64,000 bases of DNA from Eledone cirrhosa (taxonomy: Eukaryota). Positions 6,448-59,529 of this stretch are shown piece by piece. The stretch covers positions 71,796,001 through 71,860,000 of the forward strand of contig OZ024746.1 in NCBI GenBank assembly GCA_964016885.1, read 5' to 3'. The position numbers were made by a program, and so were the translations under genes. Position 1 is the first letter of the stretch. Every line of letters begins with the position of its first letter. The notes below the pieces were generated by a model. That model was not told the DNA's origin, did no database searches, and worked only from the letters and a program-made list of their open reading frames with translations.

Positions 6448-6912
6448 ATGATATAAATTTGTATAAGTTTCTGTAATGGGCATCTCAGCACCCTAGGTAC
6501 TTGCCGAGTTGTCCTTAATGATAGCGCCGGACCTGCCATCACCATCACTACCATTAATCAGCCTAGTGCTGGTACTTGGCTATCGATGTCTTTGTCAACA
6601 GCGGACAATGAACACGCGCCATTGCAATAGAAATGGCATGTGCCTCGGACATTGCTGGTCAATGGTGCTTGTTAAAGCATCATCAACAACAACACCAACA
6701 ACAGTATCCAATAGCAGCGGGAACAACGACTACTACAACAACAACATCCAACAATAGTAACAACAACAAAAATAGCAATAAAAACAACTACAACATCCAA
6801 CAACAACAAAAACTACAACAACAGCAACTGTGAGAAGAAGAAGAAGAAGAAGAAGAAGAAGAAGAAGAAGAAGAAGAAGAAGAAGAAGAAGAAGAAGAAG
6901 AAGAAGAAGAAG

Positions 6913-6955
<43 letters not shown>

Positions 6956-7182
6956 TCGATGAAACAACTATAACAACAAACGTCAGCTGCGGTCATCGTT
7001 TTTCAGTGAACATTGTGACGGATTTAAGGAAGAGTAAATGACCATTGGCTAGTTTGGTTAAAGTAATGGGTGGGGGGTGAGGTGAGGTGGATGTCAAAAG
7101 GTGGAAGGTGGGTGGTAGAGTGGGTGGGCGAGGAGGGGGCTAGGGGTTTGGGTGGTCAGTAACTAAGGGTTGGATGATCGTA

Positions 7183-7883: not shown

Positions 7884-8080
7884 AACCAGTAAGACCCCGA
7901 CAGCTGAGCTCAAGCCGTTTCGACGGCTAATTCTGGTCTAGAGTCCAGAATTAGCCGTCGAAACGGCTTGAGCTCAGCTGTCGGGGTCTTACTGGTTCCT
8001 ATTACCCACTCTACTACCTCAAGTATTGAGTACTTTGGTGCGTTATGGTCCACCTGGTTCCTTACCACATTTCCTTCGTT
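7881..8080 (+). mobile_element. Asymmetric fold-back element family A (hammerhead 3' half, PLE pLTR-like)
   Basis: About 55-bp inverted arms around 7936-7943 plus an about 80-bp extension, flanked by (TA)n. Copies at 11553-11736, 12415-12598, 36771-36869 and 59352-59529; fragments at 11818, 13298 and 34983. Confidence 0.8.
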
Positions 8081-8100
8081 ATATATATATATATATATAT

Positions 8101-10877
8101 AACTTTGAATAACTTTGAAATGTTTTGGCCAGTATTGGCCCAGGCCATGTCTAACTTAATAGCACCACCTGGCGAAGTCTTTCAATTCAGGATTTGGGCA
8201 CCATGGCCCATTCGAGAAGAGAATTACTGTTTGCGGAGACATATCCGGGTGTGGGTGGTTTGTCCGGGATTACTTGGAGGAATTTGTCCAAAGACTTCTT
8301 GAATTTTGTGTGGTCAGTTTCTGTTTTGACGTGTCCTGGTGTGATGTTGAAGAGAGCAGGGCCGATTGAGGTGAAATAATTGTGCCGTATTGTTGTTATG
8401 AGTTGCGATTTAGATTTTTGAATGGGACGGATAGCACGGGGCCCAAGCCTTGGGTGTATCTTGAAGGCGATGCCAACATCATTTGGGCAGTGATGATGGA
8501 ACATTTTCCACATCATGCAGATAATATAACGCTCACGGCGACGTTGGAGTGAGTAAAGTTTCAGGTTTTCTAATCGACCCCAGTAGTCAAGGTCTGACAT
8601 GCCATCTATCTTTTTCGTGATTGCCCTTTGAGGAGCTTCAAGTTTCATGATACTTTGTTTCGTGTGGGGAGACCACAGTGGACAACAGTATTCAAGGTGT
8701 GGTCGGGCAAAAGTAGAGAAGAGAAGGATAATGGTGCGGGAATCTCTCGACTGGAAGGTTCTGAGGATCCAGGAACACATTCTGCGGGCCATGTCAACTT
8801 TGCTGCTTATATGCGTGGTCCAGCTTATGTTGCTGTCCACGGTTACTCCCAAGTCTCTGATGTTGTTAGATGCCACGAGAGTTTCCCCGGAGGGAAGGGA
8901 GTACGGGAGTTTCAGAGCATCCTCTTTTCCAAAGTGGATCAGTTCGAATTTGTCTTCGTTCAGTAACATGTTGTTCTTTTCTGCCCATTGGGTAACAGCC
9001 AGTAGGTCTGACTGAAGGCTTATCCGGTCATCCACGCCATTGATGACCTTTTGGAGCTTGGAATCATCAGCGAAAATTTTAATGTTGCTGTGTTTGATGA
9101 TGTCAGTGATGTCATTAATATAGATGATGAAGAGAAGTGGGCCCAACACAGTGCCTTGTGGGACCCCACTACTGACTTTGGCTGGGCTTGATTTGACTCC
9201 CTCAACTACAACATGTTGGGTTCTGTTTGACAGGAAGCTCTTGATCCACTGCAGCAGCTTTCCAGTGACACCAATATTGGACAGCTTTCTCAGTAGAATG
9301 TTATGATCAACCCTGTCAAAGGCCTTGCTGAAATCAAGGTAGATAACATCAGTGTTGGAACCCTCTCCCAAGGCTCTCAAAATGTCATCAAAGTGATGCA
9401 GTAGCTGCGTCAGGCAATCCCTTCCATTACGGAATCCATGCTGGTTGGAGTTCAGCATATTGTTACTCTCAAGGAAGTGGGTCATTCGCGATCTCACCAC
9501 TCGCTCAAATACCTTAATGATATGAGAGGTGAGTGAGATTGGACGGTAATTCACGGCAAGGGATTTGTTTCCCTTTTTGAAAACTGGGACAACAGACTGG
9601 GATAGAAGGTTTTCTGGCACATATCCAGCATCCAGTGAGTTCCGCCACAGATTGGCAAGAGGAGATGCAAGTTGGTGTTGACACGCCTTCAAGACACAAG
9701 CAGGGAACCTATCGGGACCTACTGCTGAATTATGCTTGATTTCCTTTATTGCCGCCAAGACATCAGGGGCGCCAAACGTTATGTCCGATAAGGTGTAATG
9801 GGGAGTAACATCGCCGATACAGCCCAGATCGGCCATATCAGGATTGCTGAAAACAGAGCAGTATTGTTTCTGCAGTATCTCACCCATGGTTTTAGCATTG
9901 TCTTGAAGAGTGCCATTTTCATCAATTAGAGGGCCAACAGTAGAGCCAGTGATTTTGTGTTTTTTTGCAAATGAAAAGAACACTTTGGGATTGAGTTTGA
10001 TCTTCTCAATGGCCCAGGCCTCTTCAGCTCTTCTCTGATTGTTGATGAGGGACATTATGTTGTTTTGGAGGTTATGTTTTTTAATCTCTAGTGATGAAAT
10101 GGCAGTCAAGTTGATGTGTTGCTGCTGACAGTATTTCAACTTGTTGATTTTTTTGTTCGTTCTCTTAATTTTTCTGATGAGCGTTTTTCTATTTCTAGGG
10201 ATTCTGCTCTTAGATTTGTTTATAGTTCTTAATGGGGTGTGTTTAGCACATATGTTTGTAACAGTGTCCACAAATGTCTGCCAGGACTTTTTGATGTTAG
10301 TGGGTGTATGAGTGTGCGTGAAGGACCAGTCGACATGTGCAAGATCATGACTGATCGCTTCCCAGTTTGCATTGTGGAAATCCATAGCGTCAAACGGATG
10401 GACAGGAGAGATGACATTGGGTTTGTATATTGGACGGTGGAATCTCAGATCACAGAGAACCATGTCATGATCAGAGAGTAGAGTTTTCTCCACTGCAATA
10501 TTGTGGATATTGTCAGTGTGATTGCTGAAAATTAAGTCTAGGACGTTTTTGTGGCACCTCGTTGGTTCGAGCACCAGTTGGGATAGGAAGAAATCATCCA
10601 TGAAGTCAAGAAGCGATTCCACAGCTTCCCTGTCAGAGGTTGAGGCAGAAGAACCTGGTGGCAGGCTGTTTGTGGACCAGTCAACTCCGGGGAGGTTGAA
10701 GTCCCCCATCATTAAGATGTTGTCAGGGTGACACTCTTGGATGAAACACTTTATGCTGTTGAGGCATTCCTTGAAGCATGGTACAGGCGTTTGGGGTGGC
10801 CTATAGAGCCCAACTACTAATAGGTTGTTGGTTTGACTGAATACAGTGACTGCTTCACAGTATCCATTAGTGAATAT
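8101..10877 (-). mobile_element. CR1-type LINE, 5'-truncated, inserted between (TA)n tracts
   Basis: APE+RT ORF, short 3' UTR ending TTCAAAGTTATTCAAAGTT, and TA repeats on both sides. Confidence 0.93.
8187..10712 (-). CDS. LINE ORF2: partial APE endonuclease + reverse transcriptase (frame stays open upstream to about 10877)
   Basis: GLYRPP (upstream of the tracked Met), GDFNLP, LDLIF, SDH; RT motifs NYRPISLTS, QHGFR, YLDFSKAFD, GVPQGTVLGPLLF, FADD; RPHLEYC; C-terminal NSLLEW. No internal stops. Confidence 0.95.
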   Translation of the reverse strand: MMGDFNLPGVDWSTNSLPPGSSASTSDREAVESLLDFMDDFFLSQLVLEPTRCHKNVLDLIFSNHTDNIHNIAVEKTLLSDHDMVLCDLRFHRPIYKPNVISPVHPFDAMDFHNANWEAISHDLAHVDWSFTHTHTPTNIKKSWQTFVDTVTNICAKHTPLRTINKSKSRIPRNRKTLIRKIKRTNKKINKLKYCQQQHINLTAISSLEIKKHNLQNNIMSLINNQRRAEEAWAIEKIKLNPKVFFSFAKKHKITGSTVGPLIDENGTLQDNAKTMGEILQKQYCSVFSNPDMADLGCIGDVTPHYTLSDITFGAPDVLAAIKEIKHNSAVGPDRFPACVLKACQHQLASPLANLWRNSLDAGYVPENLLSQSVVPVFKKGNKSLAVNYRPISLTSHIIKVFERVVRSRMTHFLESNNMLNSNQHGFRNGRDCLTQLLHHFDDILRALGEGSNTDVIYLDFSKAFDRVDHNILLRKLSNIGVTGKLLQWIKSFLSNRTQHVVVEGVKSSPAKVSSGVPQGTVLGPLLFIIYINDITDIIKHSNIKIFADDSKLQKVINGVDDRISLQSDLLAVTQWAEKNNMLLNEDKFELIHFGKEDALKLPYSLPSGETLVASNNIRDLGVTVDSNISWTTHISSKVDMARRMCSWILRTFQSRDSRTIILLFSTFARPHLEYCCPLWSPHTKQSIMKLEAPQRAITKKIDGMSDLDYWGRLENLKLYSLQRRRERYIICMMWKMFHHHCPNDVGIAFKIHPRLGPRAIRPIQKSKSQLITTIRHNYFTSIGPALFNITPGHVKTETDHTKFKKSLDKFLQVIPDKPPTPGYVSANSNSLLEWAMVPKS

Positions 10878-14486: not shown

Positions 14487-14541
<55 letters not shown>

Positions 14542-14543
<2 letters not shown>

Positions 14544-15490
14544 AGGGCGGGTAAAATTCCCGAGATCCATGGACGAGTTCTCTCCAGCGGTCCCTCATTA
14601 TCGCTGCCATGTCCTGCGTCTCCAACAGACCAGTGTCTGTCCTTAGGGCATCAACATACGTTAACCTTGGTCTTCCTCTTCCAGTGTGTCCATGTAGGGG
14701 CTCCCACAGGAGTACTGAGTGCAATGTCAACTCTGGATGTCGGTGAGCATGTCCAGCTAACCTCAGTCTCCTCTGTGTCACTTTTGAGCTGACTTTTGGG
14801 AGGCTCCCATAGAGCTCTGAGTTTTTCATCCTCAGTGTATACTGATTAATGTCCAGAGCCATCCTCAGAATTCTCGTGTAGCACCCATCCACCAACTGAG
14901 TGAGTTTCTTGGTCAGTGTCCAAGTCTCAGACCCGTACAGCAGCACAGACTCCACTACAGCAATGAAGAGGCGGATTTTCAGGTCTTTACGAAAGTCCGA
15001 CTTCCACACCGATCTCAAGCTGTGGCACGCCGCCCAGGCTTTGCTCTTCCTCTTAACCACATCATCTTCCGTATTCCCAATCTTTTCTCCCAAATGCAGG
15101 AAGCCCTCAACCAATTCTAACGGCTTCCCGCCTACATTAGTGATCCCCTCTGGCTTCTCAACATTCTCTACCAGATATTTTGTTTTAGTCTCATTCATTC
15201 TCAGCCCCACACTCATCGACACAGTCTCAACCTCCAACATCAAATCCTCTGCCCCCTTTACTGTATTTGTCACCTAAACTATGTCGTCAGCAAATTCAGC
15301 ATCTGATACCTTTTTCGCCTTAACTCTCCTGCTCTGAGCCGGTGGTACAGTAAAGCCAGAGTTCTGGTGTTTCTCCAGTGCAAGGCGCATACAATAGTCC
15401 ACTACGATGATAAAAAGGTAGGGTGCCAATGTATCTCCCTGGAACACTCCAGCCAGTATCTCAAAGAACTCTGTCATACCATCAGGTGCC
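14542..15490 (-). mobile_element. RTE-clade LINE 3' segment (RT C-terminal half to element end)
   Basis: PDGMTEFFEILAGVFQGDTLAPYLF...FADDIV*...LLYGSETWTLT...LRLAGH...GRGRPRLTYVD...WR; one in-frame stop at about 15274. Confidence 0.93.
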
Positions 15491-15803
15491 AAAAAAGGGA
15501 GATCTCTCTAACACCAACAACTACAGGGGGATCTCACTGACGTCACTTGTGGCAAAGACCCTCAACAGGATGATTCTTAACAGGATCCAACCTGAGATGG
15601 AGAAGAAGCTTAGGGACAACCAGAACGGCTTCTGAGAGGGAAGATCAACTACCAGTCACATCCTGAGGCTGAGGAGGATATTAGAGGAAGCTAGAGCAGA
15701 GTGCCTTCCTGCGGTCATGGTTTTCATTGACTTTAGGAAGGCCTTTGATTCTGTGGAGCGTCACTGCCTGATGAAGATCTCACAGGCTTATGGAATCCCA
15801 AGA

Positions 15804-19212: not shown

Positions 19213-22200
19213 TCACCACCACCACCACCATACCAACAACACTATATCACCACCACCACCATACCAACAGCACCATATCACCACCACCACCACCATACCA
19301 ACAGCACCATATCACCACCACCACCACCATACCAACAACACTATATCACCACCACCACCACCATACCAACAGCACCATATCACCACCACCACCACCATAC
19401 CAACAGCACCATATCACCAACAACACCATACCAACAGCACCATATCACCACCACCACCATACCAACAGCACCATATCACCACCACCACCACCATACCAAC
19501 AGCACCATATCACCACCACCACCACCATACCAACAACACTATATCACCACCACCACCACCATACCAACAGCACCATATCACCACCACCACCACCATACCA
19601 ACAGCACCATATCACCACCACCACCACCATACCAACAGCACCATATCACCACCACCACCACCATACCAACAGCACCATATCACCACCACCACCACCATAC
19701 CAACAGCACCATATCACCACCACCACCATACCAACAGCACCATATCACCACCACCACCATACCAACAGCACCATATCACCACCACCACCATACCAACAGC
19801 ACCATATCACCACCACCACCACCATACCAACAACACTATATCACCACCACCACCACCATACCAACAGCACCATATCACCAACAACACCATACCAACAACA
19901 CTATATCACCACCACCACCACCATACCAACAGCACCATATCACCACCACCACCACCATACCAACAACACTATATCACCACCACCACCACCATACCAACAG
20001 CACCATATCACCAACAACACCATACCAACAACACCATATCAGAACCACCACCACCATACCAACAACACTATATCACCACCACCACCACCATACCAACAGC
20101 ACCATATCACCAACAACACCATACCAACAACACCATATCACCAACAACACCATACCAACAACACCATATCACCACCACCACCACCATACCAACAACACTA
20201 TATCACCACCACCACCACCATACCAACAGCACCATATCACCAACAACACCATACCAACAACACTATATCACCAACAACACCATACCAACAGCACCATATC
20301 ACCAACAACACCATACCAACAACACTATATCACCAACAACACCATACCAACAACACTATATCACCACCACCACCACCATACCAACAGCACCATATCACCA
20401 CCACCACCACCATACCAACAACACCATATCACCACCACCACCACCATACCAACAACACTATATCACCACCACCACCACCATACCAACAGCACCATATCAC
20501 CAACAACACCATACCAACAACACTATATCACCAACAACACCATACCAACAGCACCATATCACCAACAACACCATACCAACAGCACCATATCACCAACAAC
20601 ACCATACCAACAACACTATATCACCACCACCACCACCATACCAACAGCACCATATCACCACCACCACCACCATACCAACAACACCATATCACCACCACCA
20701 CCACCATACCAACAACACTATATCACCACCACCACCACCATACCAACAGCACCATATCACCAACAACACCATACCAACAACACTATATCACCAACAACAC
20801 CATACCAACAACACCATATCACCACCACCACCACCATACCAACAACACCATATCACCAACAACACCATACCAACAACACTATATCACCAACAACACCATA
20901 CCAACAACACCATATCACCACCACCACCATACCAACAACACTATATCACCACCACCACCATACCAACAACACTATATCACCAACAACACCATACCAACAA
21001 CACCATATCACCACCACCACCATACCAACAACACTATATCACCACCACCACCACCATACCAACAACACTATATCACCAACAACACCATACCAACAACACC
21101 ATATCACCACCACCACCATACCAACAACACTATATCACCACCACCACCACCATACCAACAACACTATATCACCAACAACACCATACCAACAACACCATAT
21201 CACCACCACCACCATACCAACAACACTATATCACCACCACCACCACCATACCAACAACACTATATCACCAACAACACCATACCAACAACACCATATCACC
21301 ACCACCACCATACCAACAACACTATATCACCACCACCACCATCATACCAACAACACTATATCACCAACAACACCATACCAACAACACCATATCACCACCA
21401 CCACCATACCAACAACACTATATCACCACCACCACCATACCAACAACACTATATCACCACCACCACCATCATACCAACAACACTATATCACCAACAACAC
21501 CATACCAACAACACCATATCTCCACCACCACCATACCAACAACACCATATCACCACCACCACCATACCAACAACACTATATCACCACCACCACCATACCA
21601 ACAACACTATATCACCACCACCATCATACCAACAACACTATATCACCAACAACACCATACCAACAACACCATATCACCACCACCACCACCATACCAACAA
21701 CACTATATCACCACCACCACCATACCAACAACACCATATCACCACCACCACCATACCAACAACACTATATCACTACCACCACCATACCAACAACACCATA
21801 TCACCACCATACCAACAACACTATATCACCACCACCACCATACCAACAACACTATATCACCACCACCACCATACCAACAACACCATATCACTACCACCAC
21901 CATACCAACAACACTATATCACCACCACCACCATACCAACAACACTATATCACTACCACCACCATACCAACAACACCATACCACCACCACCACCATACCA
22001 ACAACACTATATCACTACCACCACCATACCAACAACACCATACCACCACCACCACCATACCAACAACACTATATCACCACCACCACCATACCAACAACAC
22101 TATATCACTACCACCACCATACCAACAACACCATACCACCACCACCACCATACCAACAACACTATATCACCACCACCACCATACCAACAACACTATATCA

Positions 22201-24700
22201 CCACCACCACCATACCAACAACACCATACCACCACCACCACCATACCAACAACACTATATCACCACCACCACCATACCAACAACACTATATCACTACCAC
22301 CACCATACCAACAACACCATACGACCACCACCACCATACCAACAACACTATATCACCACCACCACCATACCAACAACACTATATCACCACCACCACCATA
22401 CCAACAACACCATACCACCACCACCACCATACCAACAACACTATATCACCACCACCACCATACCAACAACACTATATCACTACCACCACCATACCAACAA
22501 CACCATACCACCACCACCACCATACCAACAACACTATATCACCACCACCACCATACCAACAACACTATATCACCACCACCACCATACCAACAACACTATA
22601 TCACTACCACCACCATACCAACAACACCATACCACCACCACCACCATACCAACAACACTATATCACCACCACCACCATACCAACAACACTATATCACCAC
22701 CACCACCATACCAACAACACCATACCACCACCACCACCATACCAACAACACCATATCACCACCACCACCATACCAACAACACCATATCACCACCACCACC
22801 ATACCAACAACACCATACCACCGCCACCACCATACCAACAACACTATATCACTACCACCACCATACCAACAACACTATATCACCACCACCACCATACCAA
22901 CAACACTATATCACTACCACCACCATACCAACAACACTATATCACCACCACCACCATACCAACAACACCATACCACCGCCACCACCATACCAACAACACT
23001 ATATCACCACCACCACCATACCAACAACACCATACCACCGCCACCACCATACCAACAACACTATATCACCACCACCACCATACCAACAACACTATATCAC
23101 CACCACCACCATACCAACAACACTATATCACCAACAACACCATACCAACAACACCATATCACCACCACCACCACCATACCAACAACACTATATCACCACC
23201 ACCACCATACCAACAACACCATATCACCACCATATCACCACTATACCACCGCCACCACCATACCAACAACACTATATCACCACCACCACCATACCAACAA
23301 CACTATATCACCACTATACCACCACCACCACCATACCAACAACACTATATCACCACCACCACCATACCAACAACACTATATCACCACCACCACCATACCA
23401 ACAACACTATATCACCACCACCACCATAACAACAACACCATATCACCGCCACCACCATAACAACAACACCATATCACCGCCACCACCATACCAACAACAC
23501 TATATCACCACCACCACCATAACAACAACACCATATCACCACCACCACCATACCAACAACACCATATCACCGCCACCACCATACCAACAACACCATATCA
23601 CCACCACCACCATACCAACAACACTATACCACCACCACCACCATACCAACAACACCATACCACCGCCACCACCATAACAACAACACCATATCACCGCCAC
23701 CACCATACCAACAACACCATACCACCGCCACCACCATACCAACAACACCATACCACCGCCACCACCATACCAACAACACCATACCACCGCCACAACCATA
23801 CCAACAACACTATACCACCACCACCACCATAACAACAACACCATATCACCACCACCACCATACCAACAACACTATATCACCGCCACCACCATACCAACAA
23901 CACCATACCACCGCCACCACCATACCAACAACACTATATCACCACCACCACCATACCAACAACACTATACCACCACCACCACCATAACAACAACACCATA
24001 TCACCACCACCACCATACCAACAACACCATATCACCGCCACCACCATACCAACAACACCATACCACCGCCACCACCATACCAACAACACCATACCACCGC
24101 CACAACCATACCAACAACACCATATCACCACCACCACCATACCAACAACACTATATCACCACCACCACCATACCAACAACACTATATCACCACCACCACC
24201 ATACCAACAACACTATATCACCACCACCACCATACCAACAACACTATATCACCACCACCACCATACCAACAACACTATATCACCGCCATACCAACAACAC
24301 TATATCACCACCATACCAACAACACTATATCACCACCATACCAACAACACTATATCACCACCATACCAACAACACTATATCACCACCACCACCATACCAA
24401 CAACACCATATCACCACCATACCAACAACACTATATCACCACCACCACCATACCAACAACACTATATCACCACCACCACCATACCAACAACACCATATCA
24501 CCACCACCACCATACCAACAACACCATACCACCGCCACCACCATACCAACAACACTATATCACCACCACCACCATACCAACAACACCATATCACTACCAC
24601 CACCATACCAACAACACTATATCACCGCCACCACCATACCAACAACACCATACCACCGCCACCACCATACCAACAACGCCATACCACCGCCACCACCACT
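19213..24700. repeat. 5.5-kb minisatellite, unit mostly 31-34 bp: (CAC)n-CATACCAACA(A/G)CAC(C/T)ATAT
   Basis: Direct tandem periodicity; explains the 1602-aa ORF. Confidence 0.97.
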
Positions 24701-25998: not shown

Positions 25999-26063
25999 CA
26001 CATATATATATATATAGATCGATAAATGGATAGATAGATAGATAGATAGATAGATGGATAGAT

Positions 26064-26446
26064 ATGTTTCTTTATTAGCCACAGGGGCACAAAAGAAGGG
26101 GACAAATACAAAGGGGGAAGTTTACATACAATAAAAACGTGTAAAATGTTATCACAAATGCAATTTAAAAAATTAGTCGATTTCCCCCAATAGGGGGAGA
26201 CAGTTCATATGGGTAACACATACCCCGGAAAAAATGTGCAACCCTCTTCTCCAGGAGTACGAAGAGTTTGTACTCCTTTCCTCTCTTCTTCCTTTTCCTC
26301 AACCTACAGGCTGATATAGAGAGAAGGCCTATTCACTCGGGCCATTCTCGCCACTTTCACCCACCTTTCATAAAACTTGCTGGGGTACAGCACCTCTCTC
26401 TCCATCCTGATTCTTCTTCCAAAGTGGTATTTGAAAAAAAGAATCA
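26064..26446 (-). mobile_element. 5'-truncated Tx1-like element in (GATA)n
   Basis: Encodes YHFGRRIRMEREVLYPSKFYERWVKVARMARVNRPSLYISL*, nearly identical to the ORF2 C-terminus at 53092, then a 3' UTR with AATAAA. GATA repeats on both sides. Confidence 0.93.
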
Positions 26447-26553
26447 GATAGATGGATAGATAGATAGATAGATAGGGGGTAGATAGATAGATAGATAGAT
26501 AGATAGGGGAGGGTAGACTGATAGATAGATAGATAGGGGGGTAGATAGATAGA

Positions 26554-28494: not shown

Positions 28495-30015
28495 CTGTTT
28501 CTACGTTAGGCACAAGGCCAGCAAATACCCAGTGTATTACTGGTACTTTATTTTATCGACCCCGTAAGGATGAAAGGCAAAGTTAACCTCGGCGGGATTT
28601 GAACTCAGAATGGCAAGGGCCGTAACTCTATGCGCCAAAAAAACAATAACAATGATAACAATTACTTTAACACTTTCTTTATTTTAATAAATTTATTTCT
28701 ATAACAATAATAACTATAACAACAATCACAAATGTAACAGAAATAGCGTCAACGAAAAACAATAACAATAACAACAACAATCTGTATTATAATGGTTTCT
28801 TATATAGGCAGGCACAAGGCCAGCAATTTTTTGGGGGGGTGGGGGAGGCGGTAGTCGATTAAATCGACTCCAGTGCGTGACTGGTACTTTATTTTATCGA
28901 CCCCGTAAGGAGGAAAGGCAAAGTTAACCTCGACGGGATTTGAACTCAGATCATAAAGGGCCGTAACTCTATGCTGCAAAGCATGACGTCCGACGTTCTA
29001 CCGAGTCTGCCAATCCACCACCTTAACAATCTGTATTATAATAATAATCGTACCGCGATTGGCAGTATCGGTAGAGTGTCGGACGCCATGCTTTCCAGCA
29101 TAGTTACGTACCTTTACGATCTGAGTTCAAATCCCGCCGAGGTTGACTTTGCCTTTCATCCTTACGGGGTCGATAAAATAAAGTACTAGTAATGCACTGG
29201 GTAATTGCTGGCCTTGTGCCTAAAGTAGAAACAATTATTTCTCCGCCTGTCCGAGGTCGGTGGATTGGCAGTATCGGTAGAGGGTCGGACGCCATGCTTT
29301 CCAGCATAGTTACGTCCCTTTACGATCTGAGTTCAAATCCCGCCGAGGTTGACTTTGCCTTTCATCCTTACGGGGTCGATAAAATAAAGTACCAGTAATG
29401 CACTGGGTAATTGCTGGCCTTGTGCCTAAAGTAGAAACAATTATTTCTCCGTCTGTCACACGGAGGTTCCTCAATGTTCTCTGATATATAATTGGAAAAC
29501 ATTGAAAAATCAGAAAAGGAGGGAACAAATATTCTAAATGGTCCTATTTTACACACACATTCATTCACTTTCTTTTCTTACTCTCTTCTATCGATTTCTT
29601 CTATTTCTCATTCTAACTTCCGACGAGGGACTAACGCCCGAAACATTAAGACATTTTTCCTACTATAACAAGCGTTAAACTAATATACACTATCGTTATA
29701 CTGTATTATTCGGCCGTGTTGTTATTCCTTGTTGATATTTTGCATATATAAACTGAATGTCTCATATAATGTTTAGTATAACATAGTATAATGTTATACT
29801 ATGTTATACTAAACATTATATGAGATATATATTATATATAAAATTATACTATGTATAAAGGAGCGGTGAATTGGCAGTATCGGTAGAGGGTCAGACGACA
29901 TGCTTTTCAGCATAGAGTTACGGTCTTTTACGGTCTGAGTTCAAATCCCGCCGAGGTTAACTTTGCCTTTCATCCTTACGGGGTCGATAAAATAAAGTAC
30001 CAGTCACGCACTGGA
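28495..30015. mobile_element. SINE cluster: 28495-28635 (-), 28795-29020 (-), 29058-29238 (+), 29262-29443 (+), 29868-30015 (+)
   Basis: Five copies of the same consensus; the two at 29058 and 29262 form a near-identical tandem pair. Confidence 0.9.
29617..29650 (+). ncRNA. Minimal hammerhead-like motif (family D)
   Basis: CTT-CCGACGA-GGG actaacg CCC-GAAAC ATT-AAG; relatives at 36618-36651, 38261-38296 and a 3' half at 35907. Confidence 0.55.
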
Positions 30016-41099: not shown

Positions 41100-42632
41100 A
41101 CATAAACCATCCAATATACCATCCATATATACCATCCATATACCATCCATATACCATCCATATACCATCCATATACCATCCATATACCATCCATATACCA
41201 TCCATAAACCATCCAATATACCATCCATAAACCATCCAATATACCATCCATATACCATCCATATATACCATCCATATACCATCCATATACCATCCATATA
41301 CCATCCATATACCATCCATATACCATCCATATACCATCCATATATACCATCCATATACCATCCATATACCATCCATATATACCATCCATATATACCATCC
41401 ATAAACCATCCAATATACCATCCATATACCATCCATAAACCATCCAATATACCATCCATAAACCATCCAATATACCATCCATATACCATCCATAAACCAT
41501 CCAATATACCATCCATATACCATCCATATATACCATCCATATACCATCCATATACCATCCATAAACCATCCATGAACCATCCATATATACCATCCATATA
41601 TACCATCCATATATACCATCCATATACCATCCATATATACCATCCATATACCATCCATATACCATCCATATATACCATCCATATACCATCCATATATCAT
41701 CCATATATACCATCCATATACCATCCATAAACCATCCAATATACCATCCATAAACCATCCATAAAACATCCATAAACCATCCATATACCATCCATATACC
41801 ATCCATATATACCATCCATAAACCATCCAATATACCATCCATATGCCATCCATATACCATCCATATACCATCCATAAACCATCCATAAACCATCCATATA
41901 TATACCATCCATATACCATGCATATATATACCATCCATATACCATCCATATACCATCCATATACCATCCATATACCATCCATAAACCATCCATAAACCAT
42001 CCATATATATACCATCCATATATATACCATCCATATATATACCATCCATATATATACCATCCATATACCATCCATAAACCATCCATATACCATCCATATA
42101 CTATCCATATACCATCCATAAACCATCCAATATACCATCCATAAACCATCCATATACCATCCATAAACCATCCATATACCATCCATATACCATCCATATA
42201 TACCATCCATAAACCATCCAATATACCATCCATATATACCATCCATATACCATCCATATACCATCCACAAACCATCCATGAACCATCCATATATATACCA
42301 TCCATATACCATACCTAAGGACAGACACTGGTCTGTTGGAGATGCAGGACATGGCAGTGATAATGAGGGACAGAGACCGCTGGAGAGAACTCGTCCATGG
42401 ATCTCGGGAATTTTACCCGCCTTAGATAGATAGATAGATATATACCATGCATATATATACCATCCATATACCATCCAATATACCATCCATAAACCATCCA
42501 TATACCATCCATAAACCATCCAATATACCATCCATATACCATCCATATACCATCCATAAACCATCCATATACCATCCATAAACTATCCAATATACCATCC
42601 ATATACCATCCATACACCATCCATATACCACC
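41100..42632. repeat. 11-bp satellite (ATACCATCCAT)n with variants
   Basis: Direct reading; source of the MDGIWMVYGWY ORFs. Confidence 0.97.
42312..42440 (+). mobile_element. Very short 3' end of the RTE family at 14542, with (TAGA)n tail, inside the satellite
   Basis: Matches the reverse complement of 14542-14647; possible TSD ATATACCAT. Confidence 0.9.
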
Positions 42633-42852
42633 CACTCCACCTATCTATGTAAACTTTCAATATCCTGATTAATTAAAGGGAGAAACTGATTAGGTGATCG
42701 ATATTGTGTACACGCAAATCTTTTAAATGAAGTATGTATGTGTATAGCAAATATATTATGTTTGTATGTATGTGTGTTCATTGTATGCATATACATACAT
42801 TTATGCACCGATGCAAACACATGCACACATACACTCGCATATATACATATAT

Positions 42853-52786: not shown

Positions 52787-52827
<41 letters not shown>

Positions 52828-53091
52828 TATTTCTTTTATTTGCCACTAGGGCATCAAAAGTGGGACAAGTACAAAGGGGGGAGTTTACACAAAAAGGCGT
52901 CCTCAATAAGGAGAAGGCAATAACAAAATATAAAAATAAAATAAGATATAACAAAAAATAAAATTTTTAACAAAATCCTCAATAGAGAGGAGGCGCCTTG
53001 GGGGGTCGCACACACCCCCGAAAAAAGTGTGCAACCCTTCTCCTCAGGAGCACAGAGAAGGGGTGCTCCCTTGGTCTTTTATCTTCCTCAC

Positions 53092-56000
53092 CTATAGTCT
53101 GATGTAGAGTGAAGGCCCATTCACACGGGCCATTCTCGCCACTTTCACCCATCTTTCATAGAAACGGCTGGGGTGCAGCACCTCTCTCTCCATCCTGATC
53201 CTTCTTCCGAAATGATATCGGAAGAAACGGACCAGTTGTTGGCCAGAGAGAAAGGTGCCTGACCTCAGTCCTTTCAGACGCGTCCACCATACAACCTCTT
53301 TCGCCATGGCTATTACGCACAGAAACACCGCCTCTGCTTCATCTTTGAAGGGGGGAGGCGGCTTGATCATTACAATCGACTCGGTGGTCAACCGGATCGG
53401 TCCCACCCTTGACAGCAGTTGTTCGACATAGCCCCACAGATCGGCTACGCCCGAGCAGTGTACCAATGCGTGTGCAACGGTTTCCTCGTCGCACACGCAT
53501 CTGGGACAGATCTTTTTGGCGGGGTCCCTTCCCGGGCGCCCGTGTCTGTAGAGCCTTTCTCGAACGGGTAAAGCCCCTCGGTAGCACTGCCAGGCCAGGG
53601 ACTTCTGGAAGTTGTCCATAGGTCCCGGGCTGAATGTCCTACCGAACAGGCTGGCCAGTTCGTCCTCCTCCATGTCTAGGGCTTCTCCGAGGGCGTCGTC
53701 GCACCTGCTGCGTACCAGCCCTCTATAGAATGTTGCGGTGGAGTCTCCACTGATAACCGGATCCGCCTGCCAGAGGGCGGTGAGCGCCTGGGCACACTCA
53801 GTGTGCCAGGCGCCCAGTTTTCTCGGTCTTTGCTTGACCCAGGATTGCAGCTCGGTGAGTGAGACGAGTCTGGGAAAGGTTCGTCTCACAAACGAGGCCC
53901 ACACCGGTTGTCCGGTGAGGAATACGTAGAGGTGCCGTAGCCTTAATGCGTGTTTACGCATCATTAGCCACGGCATCCCCAGCCCTCCTTTCGAAGGGTG
54001 TTGACAGCAGATGGATCTCCTCACCATAGGAGCCCGCCTCTTCCAAAGGAATTGGAAGAGCGCGCGCTCCATCTTGGTGAGGGTTTCCCTTGGGCAGGGC
54101 ACTACGGTCAGGCGGTAGTAGATGACGGACGCTATGTAGGTGTTCGCCACCTCCGCCCGACCTTTCAGGGATAGTTTGCAACTGGCCCACTTCTGGGTCA
54201 GTGCAAACACCCTGTTCGTAACCTCCGCCCAGTTTTTCTCCACCTGGAGGTCCGGTCCGAACCAGACCCCGAGCAACTTCACCGGGCCCTCCGTCCAGCG
54301 TCCGACGACGCTATCGGAGGGCATCGGTCTGCCCCTCCACGTGCCGAGTTGCAAACCGATCGACTTGTCCCGGTTCAGCTTAGCCCCTGTGAACTTTTCG
54401 TACTCCTCCAGTAAGGTGCCGACCGCCTCGATTTCGGAGGCCGTCGACACCATTACTGTCACGTCATCGGCGTAGGCCGACACCGCTTTCCGCAATCCCG
54501 GTTCCAAAGGGATGCCCTGCAACAACTCCAACTTCCGCAGTAGTGGCTCGAGAGTCAACACATACAGAAGGGAGGAGAGAGGGCACCCTTGTCGGATGGA
54601 CCGCTCGATTTTGAACGGCTCCGAGAGGTAGCCGTTCACCTTGACCCTAGAGCAGATGCGGCTGCTGTGCATAGCAGTGATCCAGCCCCTGAAAACGGGT
54701 CCGAAGCCTGCCGCCGCTAGCACCGCATCCAGGTAACCATGGTCGACCCTATCGAACGCCTTAGATTGATCCAAGTTGATCAGAGCCCCACCAAAGCCGG
54801 GTTCGTTCCCAACCCTCTCTATGATGTATCGCATGAGGTGGAGGTTGTCATGGATGGACCTGGACGGGATAGCGCATGTCTGCGCATCTCCCACCAGGTT
54901 GCCCACGACAAGCGCCAACCTCTTTGCTAGCACCTTGGCCAAAATCTGTAACTCTGTATTTAGCAGTGTTATGGGCCTGAAGTTACTTATTTCGTCCCCC
55001 TTGTTCTCGTCCTTCCTCACTAGCGTGACTACGCCCTTGGTCACAGTACAGGGAATTCTCCCGTTCTGTTGCCAGTTGCAGTAGACCGCCTCGAGGAGAT
55101 CGGGGAACAAGTCCGGCATAGCTAGATATAATTCGTAAGGAAGACCATCGAGACCCGGGGATTTGCGTTTGCCGCATTGGCTCAGCACGTCCTCTATCTC
55201 AGCGGCCGAAATCGGCTCCTCGCAGGACTTCGCCTCCCTGTCCGAGAGGCGCGGCAGGCCGTCGAGGTATGGACCGAAGTCCACGTTCCCAACCGGCTCC
55301 CCGCCCCTCCCGAACAGTCGGGCAAAGTGCCTTTGAAAGGCCTCACACATCTGCTTAGGCTCAAGAATCGCCCGTCCATCCAGGTCTCGCAAAGACCGGA
55401 TGGTGGATTTAGTTCCACTGTTGGCCTCTGTCACGCGGGCCCAGCTAACAGCTTTGGTCCCCTCGTTCCCTAGAGCACGTATTTTACTTCGGACAACGCA
55501 GCCTTCGTGCTTCGCGTCGAAAAACTGGCTCAACGCCGTTCTCGACGCTAGCACTCTGGCCACGTCGCCGCTTCTAATTGCCTCTTCTACTCTATCTATT
55601 AGCTCCCTTTCCTTCCTATTCCTATCCGCAGCTAGAACCTTACTAAATTCTATCGAGACTACTCTAATCTCTCTCTTTAGAGATACCCACCACCTGCTGT
55701 TGACGATCGCTCCAGTCAACCGTTCCTTAACTAACGTACTAATCCGATTCCTGTAGGCTCTACTTGCCGGCAAGGACAAGTTGAGCTTCCAGTAACCGGG
55801 GCCCTGTCTATGAGTTCTGTCAAGGTTGACCATGCAGGTCACTAATTTGTGGTCTGAATAGCCAACAATGCGCATTTTTGGACAACTTAAAAAGTCCTTA
55901 TCCTTAATTCTAACTAAGAACCTATCTAGGTACGACCTAGATGATCCGCTACGATTTGCCCAAGTCCAGGTTGGCGCAGTCGGAAAATCTAGTCGATATC

Positions 56001-56529
56001 TATCGGCCAGGTCAAATCGACCGATTAACCCTTTGAGGCTATTACACCCCTCTCTATCGGGGCAGGCCCCTACGTAGTCCCAGCGTGCATCTAGGATACC
56101 ATTCCAGTCCCCCACTAATAGCAAGGAGCGGGACGTCCCTAGAAAAGTCTCCAGACGATGGAAGAAGTCCGGCCGCATTGACCCGAAAGGGCCGTAGGCG
56201 GCTACCAACCTAAACGCTCCGCCTTTACCACTGCCAAGGTCCAGAACCACTAGTCGACCCTCCGGGTCCAAATGTACCATCTGTGTTGCGAGACCCAGAT
56301 GTTTTTGCAGCAGAACGACAACTCCACCCCCACCTCCAGGCTGACAGAGAGATGCGTGCATCTCAAAGTCATCAAAGGTGGGGGCCAGCTGTCGCACGTT
56401 GCTGATCCGGGCCTCGCAAATAACCATCACATCTATACGTTGTGACCTGAGGTCATTTAGAAGCATTGCTTGCTTCCAAGTTGAGCCCAGGCCACGCGCA
56501 TTTAAACAGCCTACTCTTAGCATAGCCAT
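53092..56529 (-). CDS. ORF2: APE endonuclease, reverse transcriptase, CCHC finger
   Basis: LNARG, GDWN, SYLDRF, SDH, GYWKLN, KSPGLDGLPYE, FRPITLLN, LDQSKAFD, IRQGCPLS, YADD, GGLG, CPRC..EETVAHALVHC. Uninterrupted; first ATG at 56529. Confidence 0.97.
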   Translation of the reverse strand: MAMLRVGCLNARGLGSTWKQAMLLNDLRSQRIDVMVICEARISNVRQLAPTFDDFEMHASLCQPGGGGGVVVLLQKHLGLATQMVHLDPEGRLVVLDLGSGKGGAFRLVAAYGPFGSMRPDFFHRLETFLGTSRSLLLVGDWNGILDARWDYVGACPDREGCNSLKGLIGRFDLADRYRLDFPTAPTWTWANRSGSSRSYLDRFLVRIKDKDFLSCPKMRIVGYSDHKLVTCMVNLDRTHRQGPGYWKLNLSLPASRAYRNRISTLVKERLTGAIVNSRWWVSLKREIRVVSIEFSKVLAADRNRKERELIDRVEEAIRSGDVARVLASRTALSQFFDAKHEGCVVRSKIRALGNEGTKAVSWARVTEANSGTKSTIRSLRDLDGRAILEPKQMCEAFQRHFARLFGRGGEPVGNVDFGPYLDGLPRLSDREAKSCEEPISAAEIEDVLSQCGKRKSPGLDGLPYELYLAMPDLFPDLLEAVYCNWQQNGRIPCTVTKGVVTLVRKDENKGDEISNFRPITLLNTELQILAKVLAKRLALVVGNLVGDAQTCAIPSRSIHDNLHLMRYIIERVGNEPGFGGALINLDQSKAFDRVDHGYLDAVLAAAGFGPVFRGWITAMHSSRICSRVKVNGYLSEPFKIERSIRQGCPLSSLLYVLTLEPLLRKLELLQGIPLEPGLRKAVSAYADDVTVMVSTASEIEAVGTLLEEYEKFTGAKLNRDKSIGLQLGTWRGRPMPSDSVVGRWTEGPVKLLGVWFGPDLQVEKNWAEVTNRVFALTQKWASCKLSLKGRAEVANTYIASVIYYRLTVVPCPRETLTKMERALFQFLWKRRAPMVRRSICCQHPSKGGLGMPWLMMRKHALRLRHLYVFLTGQPVWASFVRRTFPRLVSLTELQSWVKQRPRKLGAWHTECAQALTALWQADPVISGDSTATFYRGLVRSRCDDALGEALDMEEDELASLFGRTFSPGPMDNFQKSLAWQCYRGALPVRERLYRHGRPGRDPAKKICPRCVCDEETVAHALVHCSGVADLWGYVEQLLSRVGPIRLTTESIVMIKPPPPFKDEAEAVFLCVIAMAKEVVWWTRLKGLRSGTFLSGQQLVRFFRYHFGRRIRMEREVLHPSRFYERWVKVARMARVNGPSLYIRL

Positions 56530-56553
56530 GTTGGTGGTGAAGAGAAAAGGCAC

Positions 56554-58335
56554 TTACCTCTCTGCGTCCCGGGTATCGGGCTGCACAATTTCCATTAGGG
56601 TGGGGGATGGGTTGTTGGGTGGGGTGGTGGTTTGTGGAAGTGTGGGGGCATCAGTGTGTTGTGTGGTTGGGGAGCTTGGAGTTGTGAGGGTGTTTGGGGA
56701 GGGGGTGGGATAGTTTTTTAGGAGGACTCGGTTAATGGGCCCGACGCAGGGGGGACCCACGTCCTCTTTAAAATTGTTTTTTAAAGTTTTATAGGTGTCC
56801 TGTGGGGCCTTAATCATTTTGAGGTGGGGGAAATCCCCTGCCTGGGTGAAGTTAGGCCCTTGTGTTTTTATTAGATTGTTGTTGTACACAATGTTTAACA
56901 GTTTTTTGTTTCTTGTATTTATGTATGTGTATGCATGTTTTTGTTTTTGTGTGGTGTTTTTTGTTTGCTGTTGTGAGCTCTTTTGTGTTGGTGTCAGTGT
57001 TATGTTTTGGGGAGGGGTTTTTTTCATTTGTGTGTCTGAGGTGTGTTTTCTTTTTTTTCTTTTGATTGTGTGGAAGTGCTCCTCCTCGTCTGACGACGAA
57101 CTAGGGTCATCTTCCGCGTTGGAGGGGAGGGGTATATTTTCGGGTTGTGTTTGCGGTACGGGTGTTTTGGAAATTGTTTTTGTTTTTTGAGTGGAGGGGA
57201 TGGGTTGGACATTGTTTTGTTTTGGTTTGAGCTGTGGTGGTTGTTTTTGTAGTGGTTGTTGTGGTGATTGTGTTGGTTGTGCAGTTGTTGGTGGTGTAGG
57301 CAGGATTGGGGTTTTCTTATTAAGTTGGGGACAGACAGCCCTCAGGTGACCTCTGGTTCCGCAGAGGTAACACGAGGGCCGTCTACCCTCAACGGTAATG
57401 TTGATGAAGGTTAGATCATCCAGTATGACGCGTTCAGGGATCTGGGCGATCCTTTCGGGCCTCATTTGAACTACAAGTTCGAGGCTCGTTCCACTGAACG
57501 CGTCACCCGATGCCTTTCCCATGGACACCAGCATGTCATCCTCCAGGTCCAGAAAACCTGTCAAAACCCACCATATGTCCATAATCGGCAGGATGGTGTG
57601 GATTTTTATTTTTTGTGTTCTTCTACCCATGTACGTAGGGTAGAAGGTGTATGCGGTGGATGTGATTGGTTTGATGGACAGTTTCACTGCTGTGTCCCTG
57701 TCCTTCATGAGAATGGATAGACTCCCGTAGAGTCTATCCTTCTGAATGAAGGTGATGTCCTTCATGACGTCTTTTAAAACCAGCTCTATCTCGCTCTGTG
57801 ATGGTTGAGCTGGTTTTTTACTTTTGTTCGAGATTGTCCTAAACATGACCGTGTTTAGGAGTCTCTGGCTTTTTAGTTCCGGGGGGGAATGGATTGTGAA
57901 TGAACCATTTTCCCCGTACACTATATATTTTTTCGCATCCGCCAGTAGCTCCTTCGCTTTTGTTATATCTACTGGCAGATAGTCGAGGGTTTTCCTTGTC
58001 GTCTCGGCGAAGGAGAAATTTTGTTTGTTTGTGTTGTTGTTGTCGTTGGTGGTGTTGTTGTTATCATTGTTGTTGTTGTCACCGTTATTGGTCTTGTTGT
58101 TGTTATTGTTATTGTTATTGGTGTTGTTTTCTACCGTCGCATTGTTGTTGTTGTTGCTGTTGGTTCTTTGGGTTGTTGCCATGGTAACGTCAAGTTGTCG
58201 GTTAACAGGTGGAGAGAATTCTTCCTCTGGCTGACCTATCTTCTTGACCTCTGCTACTGTGACAGTGGCAGGGGGAAGCTGTAAGTTCATCTTCCCCTTT
58301 CCTCCTTCGAATTTTGGTGAAGAGGCTTCGGCCAT
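56554..58335 (-). CDS. ORF1: gag-like protein with zinc knuckle
   Basis: 593 aa open frame; CYLCGTRGHLRAVC (CX2CX4HX4C) and basic KRKKRK; lies immediately upstream of ORF2. Confidence 0.92.
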   Translation of the reverse strand: MAEASSPKFEGGKGKMNLQLPPATVTVAEVKKIGQPEEEFSPPVNRQLDVTMATTQRTNSNNNNNATVENNTNNNNNNNNKTNNGDNNNNDNNNTTNDNNNTNKQNFSFAETTRKTLDYLPVDITKAKELLADAKKYIVYGENGSFTIHSPPELKSQRLLNTVMFRTISNKSKKPAQPSQSEIELVLKDVMKDITFIQKDRLYGSLSILMKDRDTAVKLSIKPITSTAYTFYPTYMGRRTQKIKIHTILPIMDIWWVLTGFLDLEDDMLVSMGKASGDAFSGTSLELVVQMRPERIAQIPERVILDDLTFINITVEGRRPSCYLCGTRGHLRAVCPQLNKKTPILPTPPTTAQPTQSPQQPLQKQPPQLKPKQNNVQPIPSTQKTKTISKTPVPQTQPENIPLPSNAEDDPSSSSDEEEHFHTIKRKKRKHTSDTQMKKTPPQNITLTPTQKSSQQQTKNTTQKQKHAYTYINTRNKKLLNIVYNNNLIKTQGPNFTQAGDFPHLKMIKAPQDTYKTLKNNFKEDVGPPCVGPINRVLLKNYPTPSPNTLTTPSSPTTQHTDAPTLPQTTTPPNNPSPTLMEIVQPDTRDAER

Positions 58336-58550
58336 TTAAAAAAATATTGACTTTTCAACAAGAAAAAACTTTTTTTTTTTTTAACTATTTCGCCTAAAGG
58401 CGTAGAATATTTTGAGAGACTGACCAGATCAAAGTTTGATCTGGCAGTCCCTCTACAAAATGGTACAAAAATTAAAGTTATCAGACAAGAATTTCTATAG
58501 AAATTTAAACAGAACTTACTCAGCAAGTTATACGCGTGTGTCCATCCCAG

Positions 58551-58610
<60 letters not shown>

Positions 58611-58612
<2 letters not shown>

Positions 58613-58671
58613 TGTTTCTTTATTAGCCACAATGGCACAATAGAAGGGGACAAATACAAAGGGGGGAAGTT

Positions 58672-58721
<50 letters not shown>

Positions 58722-58809
58722 TATTTCTTTATTAGCCACAGGGGCACAAAAGAAGGGGACAAATACAAAGGGGGAAGTTTACATACAATAAAAACGTGTA
58801 AAATGTTAC

Positions 58810-58810
<1 letters not shown>
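58611..58810 (-). mobile_element. Two very short Tx1 3'-UTR ends (58611-58672 and 58721-58810), each bounded by (GATA)n
   Basis: Both match 26064-26150 (TTTCTTTATTAGCCACA...GGGGACAAATACAAAGGGGGAAGTTT). Confidence 0.92.
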
Positions 58811-58873
<63 letters not shown>

Positions 58874-59351: not shown

Positions 59352-59529
59352 TAGGAAAATGTTTAAACCCCGTCGGCAGAGCTCAAGCCGTTTCGACGGC
59401 TATCCGTCGAAACGGCTTGAGCTCTGCCGTCGGGGTTAAACATTTTCCTATACCCACTCTACTACCCTATGTATTGAGTACTCTGGTGCGTTATTGTCCA
59501 TCTGGTTCCTTACCACACATCCTTCGTTA
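59352..59529 (+). mobile_element. Family A fold-back element
   Basis: Arms around CGACGG-CTAT-CCGTCG, with the same extension as 7881. Confidence 0.85.

What the first reader, a model, noticed from the sequence alone, without database searches (positions are those of the whole stretch)
52829..58870. Intact Tx1-like retrotransposon family apparently specific for (GATA)n, with a (TATC)n end instead of poly(A)
Seen: four insertions (26064, 52829, 58611, 58721) all lie in GATA tracts in the same orientation. Each ends AATAAA(A)GAAA(C/T)ATATCTATC, and none lies in the far more abundant TA, CA or GA tracts. Three are stacked in a single tract, and both ORFs of the full copy are open. Established: some Tx1-clade families (Kibi, Koshi) target microsatellites through their APE endonuclease. 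Inference: a recently active TATC-specific family; its endonuclease would be of interest as a sequence-specific integration tool. I cannot tell whether it is already catalogued.
Basis: partly seen in the sequence, partly recalled or inferred. Interest (0 to 1): 0.78.

Follow-up and report, generated by a model that had tools for sequence, protein, structure and literature searches.

The report
GATA-repeat-targeting retrotransposon, recently active
This is an intact jumping gene with many near-identical copies in this genome, likely an octopus relative's; it inserts mostly at short TATC/GATA repeat sites, duplicates them, carries no poly(A) tail, and likely uses repeat sequence at both ends of its RNA to anchor itself, which makes it a new target variant of a known kind of repeat-seeking element.

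Summary
The element is real: an intact 5.7-kb L1/Tx1-type LINE (ORF1 593 aa; ORF2 1145 aa, APE + RT). Target preference holds genome-wide. The 3' flank starts TATCT in 111 of 119 copies and none has poly(A). 76 of 87 5'-truncated copies have TATCT at the 5' junction, against 3.1% background and 1 of 28 for an RTE control. Full-length copies bring their own 5' (TATC) leader, shown by a twin-primed copy. An older sister lineage ends at (ATT)n instead. The host is probably an octopod. Microsatellite-targeting Tx1 families are known; I found no TATC/GATA one in ten paper searches but could not check Repbase or Dfam. Tx1 membership is likely, not shown. Verdict: new variant of a known kind, interest 0.42.

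The parts
52828..58552 (-). Full-length family A LINE, 5.72 kb; ends AATAAAAGAAATA, no poly(A)
   Evidence: the end is defined by the empty allele at another copy
58336..58552 (-). 5' UTR, 217 nt
   Evidence: 5' end shared by 30 of 30 loci examined
56554..58335 (-). ORF1, 593 aa: N/T-rich and Q/P/T/K-rich low-complexity arms, central domain with one CCHC knuckle
   Evidence: Pfam zf-CCHC E 0.017, below the cut-off; ESM feature hits to CCHC, RRM and ZCCHC3-type clusters 0.89-0.92
53092..56529 (-). ORF2, 1145 aa: APE endonuclease (about 1-235), reverse transcriptase with YADD, C-terminal zf-RVT
   Evidence: conserved N10 E39 Y112 D141 N143 D202 D226 H227 and D688 D689; profile covers human L1 ORF2p end to end
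52828..53091 (-). 3' UTR, about 264 nt, with AATAAA 7 nt before the end
52788..52827 (.). (GATA)10: target-derived 3' flank of the full copy
   Evidence: target origin inferred
58553..58612 (.). (GATA)15: target tract, probably plus the element's own 5' (TATC) leader
   Evidence: leaders in other full-length copies
58613..58673 (-). 61-bp 3' fragment of subfamily B
   Evidence: 92% to the B reference
58674..58721 (.). (GATA)12 between stacked copies
58722..58810 (-). 89-bp 3' fragment of subfamily B
   Evidence: 100% over 85 bp to the B reference
58811..58870 (.). (GATA)15, outer end of the stack
26065..26445 (-). 381-bp 5'-truncated subfamily B copy
   Evidence: 98% to the B reference; family search
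26048..26064 (.). 17-bp target-site duplication, copy at the 3' junction (contains a GGAT variant unit)
   Evidence: identical to 26446-26462, two occurrences in the window
26446..26462 (.). 17-bp target-site duplication, copy at the 5' junction

Best explanation
It is an intact, recently amplified L1/Tx1-type retrotransposon that inserts preferentially at TATC|TATCTAT sites and duplicates 8-22 bp of them; its endonuclease likely nicks the GATA strand there, and its RNA likely pairs with the freed GATA end through UAUC-like sequence instead of poly(A). Shown: site preference, duplications starting at the repeat, a fixed 3' end without poly(A), 5' truncation with microhomology, twin priming, a (TATC) leader carried by full-length copies, and one locus present in the assembly but absent from a contig of another data set. 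Inferred: (1) transcription starts some 10-20 nt upstream, inside the donor's TATC tract, and runs past GAAA(C/T)A into the downstream tract; (2) the APE domain nicks within the first three bases of the duplication, possibly at a T/A step as L1 does (recalled); (3) the primer pairs with the first UAU(C) after the unique end, so any poly(A) further on is never copied; (4) the leader helps full-length cDNA join the top strand. Each insertion leaves a fresh target at both ends, which explains the stacks.
For: 3' flank starts TATCT in 111 of 119 copies and TAT in 118 of 119; poly(A) in 0 of 119. TATCT lies within 25 nt of the 5' junction in 76 of 87 truncated copies, and in 54 of 65 not stacked on an earlier copy; background 3.1%, RTE control 1 of 28. 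In the set picked by RT protein only, TATCT 34 against TATAT 5 of 39, although TATAT is 18 times commoner in random DNA (11905 vs 645). 27 anchored duplications: C at -1 in 25 and TATC at -4..-1 in 19, against 43 of 245 background TATCTA sites; these bases lie outside the stretch the RNA could pair with, which points to protein recognition. Empty allele: one 850-base contig of run X1 joins L120:4773 to 6800, removing the element and one 19-bp copy. Leader: the twin-primed copy L241 has 13-16 nt of (TATC) at its internal inversion joint, and L134, L143, L145 and L232 have 12-21 extra nt between duplication and 5' end. Recency: 131 RT matches at 100% (rounded) protein identity, 88 with the full open frame by my count; both ORFs intact in 16 of 27 full-length copies. 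Precedent for RNA-target annealing in R1Bm and SART1: PMC7265360 passages.
Against: No RNA run was listed, so neither RNA end was seen. The preference is not strict: 8 of 119 3' flanks do not start TATCT, and 11 of 87 truncated copies lack TATCT at the 5' junction. The nick position is ambiguous within TAT. In pure tracts an added tail cannot be excluded (64 of 119 copies have three or more perfect units downstream). The empty allele rests on one contig at depth 4.6 at one locus. The copies examined are the youngest, best-scoring ones.
Confidence: 0.6

Rival explanations
1. The endonuclease is a loose nicker of TA-rich DNA, and the target is chosen mainly afterwards, by pairing of the RNA's UAUC end with the nicked strand.
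For: Off-consensus TATAT sites with true duplications exist (L131, L201, L221, L232, L234). The 3' junction is almost invariant. A similar primer-pairing model is proposed for RTE elements (PMC6007223 abstract). The hairpin loop is L1-length (16 residues) where most relatives checked have 18-20.
Against: Bases upstream of the nick, which the RNA end cannot pair with, are also selected (TATC at -4..-1 in 19 of 27 against about 18% expected). Endonuclease swaps set the target in R1-clade elements (PMC1919474 passage).
Confidence: 0.2
2. The endonuclease alone sets the site, and the reverse transcriptase starts at a fixed point of the 3' UTR without RNA-DNA pairing (closest to the first reader's view).
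For: Selection extends about 8 bases upstream and 7 downstream of the site, like the roughly 10-bp recognition reported for TRAS1 and Tx1L endonucleases (PMC1919474 passage). At TATAT sites the fourth base is target-derived, so little RNA repeat is copied.
Against: No untemplated bases or poly(A) in 119 junctions despite an AATAAA 7 nt upstream. The RNA demonstrably carries flank repeat at its 5' end (L241), so read-through at the 3' end is plausible.
Confidence: 0.15
3. Insertion is random and the (TATC)n is only a tail made by the element.
For: An RTE-like family in this genome does behave so: (TAGA) tail in 18 of 30, 5' flanks not GATA. Full-length copies carry their own 5' TATC leader, so their flanks alone prove nothing.
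Against: Truncated copies broken at many different points still abut TATC (76 of 87); anchored duplications begin with the repeat; the empty allele already holds TATCTATCTA.
Confidence: 0.02
4. Copies insert broadly but survive, or are assembled, mainly in GATA tracts (selection, gene conversion or assembly artefact).
For: Stacks and a head-to-head pair occur (L243, L242), and repeat arrays are hard to assemble.
Against: The junction is base-precise and strand-specific, many sites have only 0-2 repeat units in unique DNA, copies lie on many chromosomes, and an independent contig shows the empty site.
Confidence: 0.03

Closest known systems
Kibi and Koshi (Tx1 clade, teleost fish)
   Same: APE-type non-LTR elements inserted specifically into microsatellites (PMC4494074 passages, PMC3812793 passages).
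   Different: Their targets are (TC)n and (TTC)n; here TATC/GATA, in a probable octopod. Their sequences and junction details were not available to me (Kojima and Fujiwara 2004 not held).
Crocodilian Tx1 families preferring (TTCC)n or (TTTC)n
   Same: Tetranucleotide-repeat preference in the Tx1 clade (PMC4494074 section 15).
   Different: Pyrimidine-rich targets; placed next to Kibi and Koshi. This element forms its own clade with an Argonauta protein and unnamed relatives, unresolved against the turtle and fish sequences.
Recently active L1-Tx1 families of Octopus vulgaris and other coleoids
   Same: 13 families, 421 insertions, 2.29 Mb (about 5.4 kb each) in PMC13282606 Table 1; L1-Tx1 expanded in coleoids (PMC8967140 passages). 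Relatives of this family may be among them.
   Different: The word 'target' does not occur in the main text of PMC13282606; no insertion site is described in the passages seen. Its libraries and supplements were not examined.
R1-clade repeat-targeting LINEs (SART1, TRAS1, R1Bm, Waldo, Mino)
   Same: Endonuclease-guided repeat targeting; RNA-target annealing proposed for R1Bm and SART1.
   Different: Different clade and targets; SART1 keeps a poly(A) tail (PMC7265360 abstract).
Human LINE-1
   Same: ORF2 architecture aligns end to end; duplications of similar size, 5' truncation and twin priming (L1 features recalled).
   Different: No poly(A), CCHC-type ORF1, RT only distantly related (107 bits), repeat target.

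Membership tests
L1 superfamily of non-LTR retrotransposons | ORF2 with N-terminal APE endonuclease, RT and C-terminal Cys motif; separate ORF1 | tested here: met
   Pfam PF03372, PF00078, PF13966; best solved match is L1 ORF2p over profile positions 2-1130
L1 superfamily of non-LTR retrotransposons | Target-primed insertion marks: target-site duplication, 5' truncation, occasional 5' inversion | tested here: met
   27 anchored duplications of 8-22 bp, empty allele, twin-primed L241
Tx1 clade | RT groups with named Tx1 elements (Tx1L, Kibi, Koshi, Keno, Dewa) | tested here: inconclusive
   No named Tx1 protein came back from three searches. RT is 36-43% identical to turtle and fish proteins and 27-31% to plant L1, but the tree leaves these groups as an open fork. 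One turtle protein's endonuclease matches the LTX chimera (that LTX carries the Tx1L loop is recalled).
Tx1 clade | Type I ORF1 (RRM plus CCHC) and not Transposase_22 | tested here: inconclusive
   One CCHC, E 0.017, below cut-off; no Transposase_22 or RRM hit; ESM feature hits to CCHC and RRM clusters. Such variants are called consistent with Tx1 in PMC5203782.
Tx1 clade | Target preference in more than 20% of flanks (criterion of PMC4494074) | tested here: met
   111 of 119 3' flanks and 76 of 87 truncated 5' flanks; criterion seen
Kibi / Koshi | Target (TC)n or (TTC)n | tested here: not met
   Site is TATC|TATCTAT; no 3' flank of 119 starts with a TC or TTC repeat
Vertebrate L1 proper | Poly(A) tail and Transposase_22 ORF1 | tested here: not met
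   poly(A) in 0 of 119; no Transposase_22 hit
Endonuclease-determined site-specific LINEs | Isolated APE domain cuts the target sequence | not testable with these tools
   Needs a nicking assay; the catalytic residues are intact

The most novel reading that the evidence does not exclude
An octopod LINE lineage that has given up poly(A) priming, takes both ends of its RNA from the microsatellite it sits in, regenerates and lengthens its own target with each jump, and has switched target between (TATC)n and (ATT)n within one genome. It would be a ready natural pair for mapping how an L1-type protein changes sequence preference, and a driver of GATA repeat growth in octopod genomes.
Probability: 0.3. 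Interest if true: 0.62.

Novelty: new variant of a known kind. Interest (0 to 1): 0.42.

Why it matters
It extends microsatellite targeting by L1/Tx1-type elements to a new repeat (GATA/TATC) and probably to cephalopods, at high copy number and with very recent activity. The junctions make a long-standing question testable: how much of site choice comes from the endonuclease and how much from RNA-DNA pairing. Many intact copies, off-target sites with clean duplications and a sister lineage with another flank give natural controls. As an integration tool it is weak: the site is short and loose, and GATA repeats are widespread in animal genomes, so it would address a repeat class and not one locus.

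Tried and rejected
No RNA holder was listed, which says nothing on expression. A control search with the window's CR1-like element found nothing, so only the RTE-like family served as control. The first long stretches were taken on the wrong side of the copies and were not used for junction counts. 5' flanks of full-length copies were rejected as evidence of targeting because these copies carry their own leader. L224/L242 looked like twin priming but is a head-to-head pair. The idea that the family homes on (TAGA) tails of the RTE-like family got 0 hits among all fetched loci. A link between ORF1, ZCCHC3 and Tx1 was not found in print. Runs labelled organisms B and C hold the element only at low depth and without flanks: no evidence on host range. 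Read depth was not used as copy number. A fold of ORF2 had not returned, and no deeper ORF1 homologue set was obtained, so the ORF1 type stays open. A second empty-site test was not obtained, so the empty allele rests on one locus. Three look-ups of earlier scan findings returned nothing.
Full report
Anatomy. The minus strand of 52828-58552 holds a 5.72-kb element: a 217-nt 5' UTR, ORF1 (58335-56554, 593 aa), a 24-nt spacer, ORF2 (56529-53092, 1145 aa) and a 3' UTR of about 264 nt ending AATAAAAGAAATA. ORF2 carries Exo_endo_phos, RVT_1 and zf-RVT. The APE residues N10, E39, Y112, D141, N143, D202, D226 and H227 and the RT aspartates are conserved across 28 aligned relatives (their catalytic role is recalled from L1). 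A profile of these matches human L1 ORF2p end to end. ORF1 has one CCHC knuckle below the Pfam cut-off. The three short window copies are 3' fragments of a sister subfamily B, about 85% identical to A.

Host and copy number. The window is G000:C6:71796001-71860000 of a 3.0-Gb assembly. The nearest named RT is an Argonauta hians protein at 67% identity, so the host is probably an octopod. First-look candidates were 237 for the A 3' end, 1255 for the 5' end and 2191 for the B 3' end, with 40 scored each; these are not copy numbers. A 300-aa RT query gave 131 scored matches at 100% (rounded), 88 of them in a full open frame by my count. Both ORFs are intact in 16 of 27 full-length copies examined; some of that set was picked for broken frames.

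Sets examined. A3: all 40 full-length matches, including the window copy (30 truncated, 10 full). A5: 11 of the 40 hits fetched whole, one dropped for lack of a 3' end. ART: 40 of the 131 RT hits (37 chosen for an unusual frame length, 3 ordinary), one dropped because its 3' end lay outside the stretch (the twin-primed copy). B: 30 of the 40 hits, 25 with the 5' junction reached. No query contained flank sequence.

Target preference. After GAAA(C/T)N the flank starts TATCT in 39 of 40, 10 of 10, 34 of 39 and 28 of 30 copies (111 of 119), TATAT in 6, other in 2; poly(A) in none. TATCT lies within 25 nt of the 5' junction in 28 of 30, 26 of 32 and 22 of 25 truncated copies (76 of 87), and in 54 of 65 that are not stacked on an earlier copy. 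In 20 fixed 10-kb stretches the same test gives 3.1%, and GATA tracts of three or more units cover 0.11% against 4.97% for TA tracts. TATAT is 18 times commoner than TATCT there, so the per-site preference is about 125-fold in the RT-selected set. The control RTE-like family shows the opposite pattern: a (TAGA) tail in 18 of 30 but TATCT at 1 and AGATA at 2 of 28 5' junctions.

The repeat is target, not tail. 42 copies gave a duplication containing non-periodic bases. 27 were kept as truncated and abutting the junction; the 15 left out were full-length, offset, or ambiguous within a stack. Lengths are 8-22 bp, and 21 of 27 have 1-6 nt of microhomology. The rebuilt site is TATC|TATCTAT: C at -1 in 25, TATC at -4..-1 in 19, C at +4 in 24, T at +7 in 27. 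Ten of the 27 have at most two perfect units and three have none; this subset is biased towards impure tracts. The window's 26065 copy is one of the 27. In run X1 one 850-base contig covers L120:4600-4773 and 6800-7120 on adjacent letters, which is the empty site with a single 19-bp copy and no added repeat. The insertion is therefore polymorphic between that data set and the assembly. Where the site reads TATAT, both duplicate copies read TATAT, so the RNA contributes at most three bases past GAAA(C/T)A and the nick lies within TAT.

5' leader. Four full-length copies have 12-21 nt of TATC-like sequence between the duplication and the unique 5' end (L134, L143, L145, L232). L241 is twin-primed: its inverted 5' part ends in 13-16 nt of (TATC) joined to internal element sequence, far from the target, which itself has only two and a half units. 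The RNA thus includes upstream repeat. Full-length flanks were therefore not counted as evidence of targeting.

Mechanism. Shown: the site, duplication, fixed end, leader and stacking (L139 inserted exactly at an earlier 3' junction; L243 holds at least four copies). Inferred: nicking of the GATA strand by the APE domain, supported by selection of bases upstream of the nick (19 of 27 against 43 of 245 in background), and priming on UAU(C) read-through RNA, supported by junction precision and by the annealing models for R1Bm and SART1. The data cannot weigh these two contributions.

Relatives. A 40-row RT tree groups A, B and an older lineage (L157) with the Argonauta protein (100/99), sister to unnamed metagenome proteins (100/100). 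Turtle and fish, plant L1 and other groups join at an open fork, and the CR1-like outgroup is on a long branch. The L157 lineage (copies 81-86% like the query) is followed by ATT in 22 of 30 copies and by TATCTA in 0 of 30; 4 of 27 show a duplication of 9 nt or more, each starting ATTAT. This suggests, but does not prove, a different target in the same lineage.

Literature. Seen as passages: PMC4494074 (plus section 15; supplements unreadable, and they may list further Tx1 targets), PMC3812793, PMC13282606, PMC8967140, PMC9004415, PMC5203782, PMC7140322, PMC1919474, PMC4640811 and PMC7265360 (also its abstract). Seen as abstract only: PMC6007223. Not held: Kojima and Fujiwara 2004, and Christensen 2000. 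Ten searches listed no report of a GATA/TATC-targeting LINE. The library lacks Repbase Reports and most subscription papers, and Repbase and Dfam could not be searched.

Verdict. A real and well-supported target-preferring LINE, a new variant of the known microsatellite-targeting Tx1-type kind; possibly catalogued as a sequence, target apparently undescribed in what I could search. Interest 0.42.

Noticed in passing
L157:5600-8800 and L247-L276: Older sister lineage (RT 49-66% identical to family A, same clade) whose copies end GAAA(C/T)C followed by ATT in 22 of 30; a few duplications start ATTAT, some next to what looks like a SINE 3' end (label from recall).
   Followed up: partly
window 14541-15500 (-), L171-L200: RTE-like family (clade label from recall; Pfam DUF6451 weak hit) with an element-made (TAGA)n tail in 18 of 30 copies, often in TA-rich sites; a separate source of GATA repeats in this genome.
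   Followed up: partly
window 8101-10712 (-): CR1/L2-like LINE with an 841-aa open RT frame, ending in a TTCAAAG duplicate next to a TA tract; a genome search with its 3' end returned nothing.
   Followed up: no
window 58336-58552 (-): The 5' UTR has a splice-donor-like GAGTAAGT and a T-rich stretch with AG shortly before the ORF1 start; 5' ends of related families also show GGTAAG. Possible intron or promoter motif, untested.
   Followed up: no
L234:3360-6250: Off-consensus insertion whose 16-20-bp duplication spans a T-rich AG directly before a possible coding exon, so a splice acceptor may have been duplicated.
   Followed up: no
L242 and L243: A head-to-head pair of copies separated by about 45 bp of GATA, and a head-to-tail stack of at least four copies within 9 kb.
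   Followed up: partly
many loci: At least five further 3'-end variants of the AATAAA..GAAA type abut TATC tracts, so several subfamilies of different age share the target.
   Followed up: partly
window 19217-24698, 41101-42634, 29057-29457: Large minisatellites (31-bp unit x 174; 11-bp unit x 134) and a 206-bp tandem duplication.
   Followed up: no
window 7900-8000 and 59370-59440: Short perfect palindromic repeats of one family (GCTGAGCTCAAGCCGTTTCGACGG arms), also seen in other loci; MITE-like.
   Followed up: no
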